Assembly (NCBI GenBank): GCA_031459625.1
Contig: JAVKIH010000005.1
Coordinates: 1 to 64,000, forward strand
Origin: Candidatus Geohabitans tengchongensis
Lineage (GTDB): Bacteria; Sysuimicrobiota; Sysuimicrobiia; Sysuimicrobiales; Humicultoraceae
Direction: 5' to 3'
Length of the DNA stretch: 64,000 nt
The stretch's first letter is position 1. Every line of letters starts with the position of its first letter. The notes under the pieces were generated by a model that searched no databases, was not told the DNA's origin, and saw only the letters and a program-made list of their open reading frames with translations. Below, piece by piece: positions 43,135-43,412 of the stretch. The position numbers and the translations under genes were made by a program.

Positions 43135-43162
43135 TTGACATCCCCCTTGCCGGGGCTATAAT
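43135..43162 (+). promoter_or_regulatory. Promoter of the 23S-5S unit / leader
   Basis: Consensus TTGACA-N16-TATAAT followed by a GC-rich discriminator GGGCGG. Confidence 0.85.
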
Positions 43163-43190
43163 GGGCGGTGCAGTACGAAGGAGGGGTTGG

Positions 43191-43208
43191 GTGTACCAGA
43201 GCGGCTAA
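43191..43208 (+). other. Candidate leader mini-ORF (MYQSG)
   Basis: AAGGAGG at 43178-43184, 6-nt spacer, GTG TAC CAG AGC GGC TAA. Confidence 0.45.
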
Positions 43209-43238
43209 AACCGCATACGGTGCATCGGATGACCGTCC

Positions 43239-43266
43239 GAGGGGATGAGGTCATCCCCTCTTTTTG
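43239..43266 (+). terminator. Intrinsic terminator inside the 23S leader
   Basis: GAGGGGATG-AGGT-CATCCCCTC followed by TTTTTG. Confidence 0.8.
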
Positions 43267-43394
43267 TGCCTGTACTGCGGGTCGGCCCCGGCGGCCGGCT
43301 CAACCGGGCGACGAGCCCGGGTCCGGACCTGGCGCTCCTGCCACGGCGGCAGGGTCGCGGGGCAGGGCCCTGGACCTCGCGGGTCTGGATGGCG

Positions 43395-43412
43395 TACCTT
43401 GACAACTGCATA
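43395..43412 (+). promoter_or_regulatory. boxA-like / processing-stem element of the 23S leader
   Basis: ACCTTGACAACTGCATAG, one mismatch to the 16S leader copy; complementary to CTATGCCGATGTCAGGG near 48223-48239. Confidence 0.7.

What the first reader, a model, noticed from the sequence alone, without database searches (positions are those of the whole stretch)
43135..43412. Candidate ribosome-sensing attenuator (SD + 5-codon uORF + terminator) in front of an unlinked 23S-5S unit
Seen in sequence: (1) a consensus promoter TTGACA-N16-TATAAT; (2) AAGGAGG, complementary to this genome's 16S tail, 6 nt before GTG-TAC-CAG-AGC-GGC-TAA; (3) a long imperfect hairpin (43180-43238) that buries the SD and start codon; (4) a 9-bp intrinsic terminator with TTTTTG (43239-43266); (5) boxA and the 23S gene only after that. 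The terminator 3' arm has two alternative partners: GGATGACC (43227-34, 8 bp) and the SD segment GAAGGAGGGGTTG (43177-89). I see no other promoter between terminator and boxA, and the 16S leader has no such terminator. Established: uORF plus mutually exclusive hairpins is the architecture of translation-coupled attenuators, and rRNA leaders are normally untranslated. Inference: 30S or ribosome loading on the mini-ORF could gate 23S-5S transcription and so balance subunit output when 16S and 23S are transcribed separately. I do not know of a described case; the direction of the switch cannot be fixed by eye.
Basis: partly seen in the sequence, partly recalled or inferred. Interest (0 to 1): 0.8.

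Follow-up and report, generated by a model that had tools for sequence, protein, structure and literature searches.

The report
Mini-ORF attenuator before unlinked 23S rRNA
Between its promoter and a stand-alone 23S-5S rRNA gene pair, this bacterium and every relative with the same split gene layout keep a tiny reading frame beside a terminator and a co-varying rival hairpin, which likely lets ribosomes switch large-subunit RNA synthesis on when small subunits lack partners.

Summary
Observation confirmed. The leader (promoter, Shine-Dalgarno, 5-codon ORF, terminator) is conserved in 36 of 94 genomes of the phylum (Ca. Sysuimicrobiota/CSP1-3). These include all 35 genomes of two families with an assembled 23S start; it is missing from all 15 genomes whose 23S follows 16S, and from 16S leaders. 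The ORF stays in frame at 5, 6, 7, 10 or 11 codons. Start is GUG, AUC, CUG or AUG, and the stop swaps UAA/UGA. The stop lies 15-20 nt before an antiterminator strand that co-varies with the terminator loop. The peptide has no regulatory codons. An unrelated sequence with the same layout precedes stand-alone 23S genes in 17 Dehalococcoidia genomes. No Rfam match, and no paper found. Best reading (inferred, 0.5): a translation-coupled attenuator that reads subunit joining, where a 30S parked at the start gives readthrough and completed translation gives termination. The direction is not settled: folding supports ribosome-ON here and in most of family f1, but not in f2. No expression data. The scan noted this layout before, on other DNA (AI notes, unchecked).

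The parts
43135..43162 (+). sigma-70-type promoter of the 23S-5S unit (transcription start predicted near 43169)
   Evidence: 12/12 consensus, only site in the region; a matching promoter precedes all 35 aligned leaders
43178..43184 (+). Shine-Dalgarno sequence
   Evidence: complementary to the own 16S tail; core present in 35 of 35 leaders; mostly unpaired in the earliest transcript, median 0.83
43191..43208 (+). 5-codon mini-ORF (GUG start, UAA stop)
   Evidence: in frame in 35 of 35 leaders at 5, 6, 7, 10 or 11 codons; start GUG 23, AUC 11, CUG 1; stop UAA 33, UGA 2; two held-out members fit, one with AUG
43180..43238 (+). predicted protector hairpin P1 (SD and ORF paired with the post-stop segment and the antiterminator strand), with the stop codon in its apical loop
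   Evidence: freeing the antiterminator strand costs 9.2 kcal/mol against 4.3 in shuffles; not conserved in family f2; no covariation in a fixed register
43211..43220 (+). conserved post-stop motif, a 2-4 bp hairpin with a 4-nt loop; role unexplained
   Evidence: near-invariant columns; hairpin possible in 33 of 35
43227..43256 (+). antiterminator: strand 43227-43234 pairs with terminator loop/3' arm 43249-43256; 43235-43238 pairs with terminator 5' arm 43243-43246
   Evidence: 97.1% of 245 cells paired, 7 cells changed on both sides, 0 of 500 shuffles as high; 7 of 7 pairs in 28 of 35 leaders; -18.5 kcal/mol
43239..43266 (+). intrinsic terminator (9 bp plus U run)
   Evidence: 3' arm invariant in the alignment
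43267..43394 (+). variable spacer; no promoter found
   Evidence: 25-134 nt in relatives; fold not better than shuffles, z -1.1
43395..43414 (+). boxA-like motif (label recalled), also present in the 16S leader
   Evidence: 19 of 21 identical to 36158-36178
43482..43511 (+). 5' strand of the 23S processing stem, complementary to 48039-48068
   Evidence: inverted match, 27 of 30
43513..48040 (+). 23S rRNA gene, the controlled gene, with two introns (about 45641-46350 and 47003-47744)
48254..48370 (+). 5S rRNA gene
36270..37814 (+). 16S rRNA gene, a separate unit 5.7 kb upstream with a short leader and its own terminator-like hairpin at 37899-37927

Best explanation
This is a conserved mini-ORF, antiterminator and terminator cassette in the leader of the stand-alone 23S-5S unit, and it likely works as a translation-coupled transcription attenuator that reads ribosomal subunit joining. 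Inferred mechanism: the strong SD loads a 30S quickly, and the weak start codon makes 50S joining the slow step. When 50S is short, the 30S stays parked on SD and start, keeps the protector hairpin open and leaves the antiterminator strand free (37-54 nt from the start codon), so polymerase reads through into 23S-5S. When 50S is plentiful, the 70S runs the few codons to the stop and the terminator wins, either because the released RNA refolds the protector (predicted for this genome) or because the ribosome at the stop crowds the antiterminator. The net effect would be to match 23S output to spare small subunits. Shown: layout, frame conservation, covariation, and co-occurrence with split rRNA genes. 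Predicted: the folds. Inferred: translation, switching, direction, purpose.
For: Element in 36 of 94 genomes: G000, 24 of 33 other f1, 11 of 22 f2, 0 of 38 in other families. All 24 f1 and 11 f2 genomes with a 23S-start match carry it (in G051 that match looks like a stray contig and the element sits at the end of another contig). All 15 genomes of f4, f5 and f7 with a 23S start have the 16S tail directly upstream and no element. 16S leaders are 24-41 nt in the 25 of 30 parsed, with no terminator seen. ORF lengths differ only by whole codons, while flanking spacers step by single bases (stop to antiterminator 15, 16, 17, 18, 19, 20). On the 29-row tree I count about 7 separate length changes by eye. 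An SD-led ORF with such a stop occurs in 35 of 35 leaders against about 4% of shuffles (partly circular), and 2 of 2 held-out members fit. Antiterminator covariation. A 30S footprint gives antiterminator probability above 0.5 in 29 of 35 leaders. In the window, naked RNA keeps the protector (0.96-0.99) until the target emerges; a footprint then gives antiterminator 0.98 and terminator 0.00, against 0.42 and 0.38 naked. In f1 a 30S footprint lowers the cost of freeing the strand in 19 of 24. The genome's own infC appears to start at AUC after an SD, so AUC is a plausible start in this lineage. The same layout in Dehalococcoidia has an ORF in 10 of 18 leaders against 2.7 expected.
Against: No expression evidence: the one RNA run is a single flat contig that may be DNA. 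At equilibrium the antiterminator also wins on naked RNA in 27 of 35 leaders and with a ribosome at the stop in 34 of 35, so no modelled state clearly gives termination family-wide. The protector beats shuffled sequence in 18 of 24 f1 leaders (8 at or below 0.1) but in only 1 of 11 f2 leaders. On full-length RNA the 30S shift favours the antiterminator in 15 of 24 f1, opposes it in 7, and opposes it in 10 of 11 f2. A fixed-register SD:antiterminator helix shows no covariation (57.6% paired; my register may be off). The 15-20 nt gap is beyond the roughly 10 nt a ribosome protects and at the edge of the 10-15 nt needed for hairpin folding (PMC4824070, section read), so direct occlusion is doubtful. 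The double-sided changes trace to about two events. The AUC codon in f2 can also pair with the antiterminator strand, an alternative reason for its conservation. 11 Dehalococcoidia genomes with an apparently stand-alone 23S have no terminator leader.
Confidence: 0.5

Rival explanations
1. Simple feed-forward switch: any ribosome on the mini-ORF, 30S or 70S, opens the protector and turns readthrough on. The stop codon only keeps ribosomes out of the rRNA precursor. 23S output would follow the rate of ribosome loading, not subunit joining.
For: In the window, the 30S and stop-codon footprints both give antiterminator 0.98. No leader of 37 has the stop closer than 15 nt to the antiterminator strand, as if clearance were required.
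Against: f2 lacks a protector. It does not explain the upper bound of 20 nt while start-to-strand varies 37-54 nt. Dehalococcoidia analogues have the stop 5-17 nt from the strand.
Confidence: 0.2
2. General translation-health sensor: the ribosome's dwell in the ORF or at the stop (release factor, charged tRNA, antibiotics, IF3) sets termination. It throttles 23S with growth conditions, not with subunit balance.
For: The stop position is fixed. The last two codons are biased to Ser/Thr then Gly/Ala. Weak starts would be IF3-sensitive (established knowledge, recalled).
Against: No shared regulatory codons among peptides of 5-11 residues. A growth control would be expected on 16S too, yet 16S leaders lack it. 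The bias may come from the small hairpin around the stop.
Confidence: 0.13
3. Protein- or ligand-sensing leader (for example a ribosomal protein binding an rRNA mimic) in which the ORF is incidental.
For: A near-invariant post-stop motif of unknown role. The region around the stop matches the own 16S helix 8/9 junction at 13 of 16 bases (read by eye).
Against: A 13 of 16 match is about what chance gives against 4.5 kb of rRNA (rough estimate). Whole-codon indels, UAA/UGA swaps and a GUG-to-AUG change are signatures of translation. No Rfam leader matches.
Confidence: 0.08
4. A fixed damper, or a stand-alone RNA of about 95 nt sharing the promoter: the terminator leaks at a set rate and the short RNA or peptide acts elsewhere.
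For: Terminator and antiterminator are within a few kcal/mol (median difference -1.6). The terminated product would be stable and structured (z -4.8).
Against: It sits at the stand-alone 23S promoter wherever the neighbourhood is assembled, with one copy per 23S gene. The peptide is not conserved, and a fixed damper needs no ORF or co-varying rival helix.
Confidence: 0.09

Closest known systems
Leader-peptide transcription attenuators of amino-acid operons (E. coli trp, his, leu, thr, pheA; recalled)
   Same: SD-led short ORF; protector, antiterminator and terminator that exclude one another; stop codon at a fixed place relative to the antiterminator.
   Different: No run of regulatory codons; 5-11 codons; mostly non-AUG starts; the controlled gene is rRNA, not a biosynthetic mRNA; the antiterminator strand pairs mainly with the terminator loop and 3' arm; the stop is 15-20 nt away.
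Coupling-type attenuators (pyrBI, pyrE; recalled) and ribosome repression of terminators near stop codons (PMC4824070, section read)
   Same: Ribosome position relative to a terminator sets readthrough.
   Different: Here the terminator arm lies about 30 nt past the stop, so control must go through a rival helix; no U-rich UTP-sensing pauses seen.
boxA/Nus antitermination of rRNA operons and ribosome feedback at rrn promoters (recalled)
   Same: Control of rRNA output; a boxA-like motif is present downstream.
   Different: Those act on Rho-dependent termination or on initiation, for the whole operon; this is an intrinsic terminator upstream of boxA, on the large-subunit unit only.
Antisense RNA on the 23S-5S leader of Helicobacter pylori (PMC6582327, passages read)
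   Same: A regulatory feature in the leader of a stand-alone 23S-5S unit.
   Different: It acts by RNase III cleavage of a duplex; the paper has no hit for 'terminator' or 'small ORF', and says that regulation of stoichiometry in such systems is not known.

Membership tests
Amino-acid leader-peptide attenuators | Short leader ORF with a ribosome-binding site | tested here: met
   37 of 37 leaders
Amino-acid leader-peptide attenuators | Mutually exclusive terminator and antiterminator | tested here: met
Amino-acid leader-peptide attenuators | Protector (1:2) helix hiding the antiterminator strand | tested here: inconclusive
   strong in the window, above the shuffle mean in 18 of 24 f1 and 1 of 11 f2; no fixed-register covariation
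Amino-acid leader-peptide attenuators | Run of codons for the sensed amino acid | tested here: not met
   peptides share no such run
Amino-acid leader-peptide attenuators | Downstream amino-acid biosynthesis or synthetase genes | tested here: not met
   downstream gene is 23S rRNA
Amino-acid leader-peptide attenuators | Readthrough depends on translation of the leader | not testable with these tools
   needs mutants or coupled in vitro assays
Rfam riboswitches, ribosomal-protein leaders and sRNAs | Score above a family's gathering threshold | tested here: not met
   none in the leader; best E-values 7.1 and 7.7; none besides rRNA and tRNA in 8 other loci
Coupling-type attenuators (pyrBI/pyrE) | ORF runs into, or ends within about 15 nt of, the terminator hairpin | tested here: not met
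   stop at 43208, terminator from 43239

The most novel reading that the evidence does not exclude
Bacteria that split 16S from 23S have repeatedly and independently invented the same fix: a mini-ORF attenuator on the 23S leader that measures whether small subunits find large partners. It is seen here with unrelated sequences in two phyla (Sysuimicrobiota, Chloroflexota), and unchecked scan notes put it in Patescibacteria too. It would be the first direct sensor of 30S/50S balance acting on rRNA transcription, and the first rRNA precursor whose leader is translated as a control step.
Probability: 0.4. Interest if true: 0.93.

Novelty: new variant of a known kind. Interest (0 to 1): 0.83.

Why it matters
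Unlinked rRNA genes occur in many phyla (10.1101/705046, Discussion read). Whether any mechanism keeps their products in step is stated as unknown (PMC6582327, passage read), and the usual view is that slow growers simply tolerate imbalance (10.1101/705046). A conserved, co-varying attenuator found only on the stand-alone 23S unit, with a reading frame under selection, turns that open question into a short list of mutants and one in vitro titration. It also puts a translated frame in an rRNA precursor, and offers a compact RNA part that may report subunit joining.

Tried and rejected
Rfam: no family for the leader. Second copy in the own genome: none (BLAST; model search best other E 0.16). 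Likenesses by eye to PyrR sites, fluoride, ykkC and NiCo riboswitches, and tRNA D-loops (all recalled): no support; dropped. 16S helix mimicry: chance level. RNA run X1: one contig at flat depth over promoter, leader and upstream gene, so it says nothing on termination. One search used a faulty terminator register and was redone. One search used wrong coordinates and was redone. A polymerase pause at the antiterminator strand was considered from spacing (9-12 nt from the post-stop motif, counted by eye); the pause consensus is not consistently met, so it is left as a lead. The pattern scan of all species genomes gave 22 loci. 19 are this element, 2 of them in bins titled as other phyla that look mis-binned (one is identical to a Sysuimicrobiota leader); 3 are ordinary terminators. 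The 23S match in G051 (78% identity, 3-kb contig) looks like a stray contig and was not counted as that genome's 23S. The pyrBI distance paper (Roland 1988) is not held. Pfam checks of the integrase-like fragment and the first intron ORF failed on stop codons and were not completed. Ribosome-footprint folding of the Chloroflexota leaders was not done, so their switch direction rests on distances alone.

Full report
Observation. The window holds one rRNA set: 16S at 36270-37814, 23S from 43513, 5S at 48254-48370, with protein genes between 16S and 23S. The 23S carries two introns and ends near 48040. The promoter is the only one found between 35500 and 48000. Taken at face value, all 23S-5S transcription must pass the terminator at 43239-43266.

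Lineage and spread. Record titles from a pattern scan place the relatives in Ca. Sysuimicrobiota/CSP1-3 (Armatimonadota-labelled bins, Ca. Fervidifonticultor, Ca. Calidihabitans). A sequence model built from 35 leaders finds the element in 36 of 94 genomes of the phylum: this one, 24 of 33 others in family f1, 11 of 22 in f2, and 0 of 38 in the other five families. Misses within f1 and f2 are genomes without an assembled 23S start. All 24 f1 genomes and all 11 f2 genomes with a 23S-start match have the element. In one of these, G051, the match looks like a stray contig, and the element sits at the end of the contig that also carries 16S, about 16 kb downstream of it. One more genome, G014, has the element at a contig end. 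All 15 genomes of f4, f5 and f7 with a 23S start have the 16S tail a few hundred bases upstream and no element. 16S leaders run 24-41 nt from -10 to boxA in the 25 of 30 that my script parsed, with no terminator seen. Kin are not independent: this may be one gain, and the 29-row tree does not resolve the base.

The reading frame is under selection. In 35 of 35 aligned leaders an SD is followed after 5-8 nt by a codon in frame with the conserved stop: GUG 23, AUC 11 (all of f2), CUG 1. Lengths are 5, 6, 7, 10 or 11 codons, and stops are UAA 33 and UGA 2. The spacers on either side change by single bases; the ORF changes only by whole codons, in about seven separate events by my count on the tree. 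Shuffles give such an ORF in about 4% of cases, but the window for that test came from the same data. The cleaner test is the two members found afterwards: both fit, with 7 codons and 18 nt to the antiterminator, and one has AUG at the start position. The AUC start of f2 is weaker evidence, since it could be kept for pairing; but this genome's infC appears to start at AUC after an SD. Peptides share nothing but a Ser/Thr and mostly Gly/Ala before the stop.

The switch. A 7-nt strand 15-20 nt after the stop pairs with the terminator loop and 3' arm: 7 of 7 pairs in 28 of 35 leaders, 6 in five, 5 in two. 97.1% of cells are paired, 7 cells change on both sides, and slid controls fall to 18-41%. 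The double changes come from about two events, one of them unique to this genome and located in the terminator loop, where the terminator does not constrain it. Terminator and antiterminator are close in energy.

Direction. For this genome, stepwise folding gives a clear picture. Naked RNA holds the antiterminator strand in the SD hairpin and leaves the terminator arm free; a 30S or 70S footprint gives the antiterminator (0.98) (shift 4.1 kcal/mol). Across the family the picture is mixed. A 30S footprint lowers the cost of freeing the strand in 19 of 24 f1 leaders but only 3 of 11 f2 leaders, and f2 has no protector beyond chance. At the decision point the antiterminator wins even on naked RNA in 27 of 35. 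A ribosome at the stop protects about 10 nt, and a hairpin needs 10-15 nt or more of clearance (PMC4824070, section 10 read), so 15-20 nt is borderline for occlusion. One state is ON under each reading I considered and in most modelled leaders: a 30S sitting at the start without a 50S (29 of 35). OFF needs either a refolded protector after release, or a ribosome at the stop. Both need the 50S, or the absence of spare 30S. I therefore commit, at 0.5, to a subunit-joining sensor; that it is a translation-coupled attenuator of some sign I put near 0.85.

A second phylum. In a sample of class Dehalococcoidia (43 of 61 genomes with a 23S match; 45 loci read), my sorting gives 18 leaders in 17 genomes with their own promoter and a terminator before boxA (16 found by script, 2 by eye). 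It also gives 11 apparently stand-alone 23S genes with short leaders and no terminator, 15 linked loci and 1 unclear. 16S leaders were 10-64 nt with no terminator in the 20 of 31 parsed. In the 18 leaders an AUG/GUG/UUG ORF ends 5-21 nt before the best antiterminator strand in 10 (2.7 expected); with an SD, 5 (0.6 expected). The antiterminator duplex beats 90% of shuffles in 8 of 18. A wider Chloroflexota sample showed the layout by eye in 5 more of 22 new loci. Three close relatives differ by a UAA/UAG swap and codon changes in an open frame. By eye these sequences do not resemble the Sysuimicrobiota element (no formal comparison run). Their stops are closer to the antiterminator strand (5-17 nt), which would favour termination by a ribosome at the stop, but I did not model this.

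Expression. One metatranscriptome holds the stretch as a single flat contig; it cannot show starts, ends or levels.

What is known. It works like a leader-peptide attenuator but fails two defining tests of that family: regulatory codons and a biosynthetic target. No Rfam family matches. Nine full-text searches for such an element listed no paper describing a translated attenuator on an rRNA leader; I saw listings and abstract openings. Of papers opened, I read passages and the Discussion of 10.1101/705046, passages of PMC6582327, passages and section 10 of PMC4824070, and passages of PMC2965389 (no mention of 23S) and PMC13613805. The library lacks most subscription journals and older work on Thermus rRNA leaders. 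I opened no supplements, and motif catalogues there could hold this element. Earlier notes of this scan report the same layout in what may be this group and in Patescibacteria; they are unchecked AI notes and are not counted as support.

Verdict. Real, conserved, tied to split rRNA genes, and not found in Rfam or the papers searched. New variant of ribosome-mediated attenuation with a new target and probably a new input. Function and direction are untested. Interest 0.83.

Noticed in passing
window 45641-46350 and about 47003-47744: Two introns in the 23S gene. The second has an intact LAGLIDADG endonuclease ORF (47108-47659, Pfam E 1e-21) and a weak group I hit. The first has a LAGLIDADG-like ORF split by a frameshift near 46050. 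Relative G007 lacks the first and has an insertion at the second site.
   Followed up: partly
window 38010-38350 and on to about 39700: Frameshifted fragment resembling the C-terminus of an integron/tyrosine integrase (motif recalled), followed by a lower-GC patch with gene remnants and cassette-like inverted repeats, directly after the 16S terminator.
   Followed up: no
L262:1960-2030 (G000:C32): infC appears to start at AUC after a strong SD, as expected for IF3 autoregulation.
   Followed up: partly
window 36158-36178 and about 37860-37880: The boxA-like motif of the 16S leader is complementary to the 16S trailer, so it doubles as the base of the processing stem; the 23S leader has nearly the same motif with no partner seen in cis.
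   Followed up: no
L155, L161, L167, L177, L241, L244: Some Chloroflexota with tRNAs or 16S upstream of 23S still carry a terminator-like hairpin, some with an internal promoter and a short ORF, in the spacer before 23S: possible intermediates between linked and split layouts.
   Followed up: partly
L074 (G051:C256): A 23S of another lineage (78% identity) on a short contig has its own promoter and a terminator with a long U run before boxA.
   Followed up: no
L017 and L076 (G037); L199 and L200 (G150): Two genome bins hold two different copies of the leader; in G150 the two share the switch part but differ in the ORF part.
   Followed up: no
L003-L027, upstream of the promoter: In many f1 genomes the same small gene, Lrp/AsnC-like by eye, precedes the 23S promoter; this genome has a different neighbour.
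   Followed up: no
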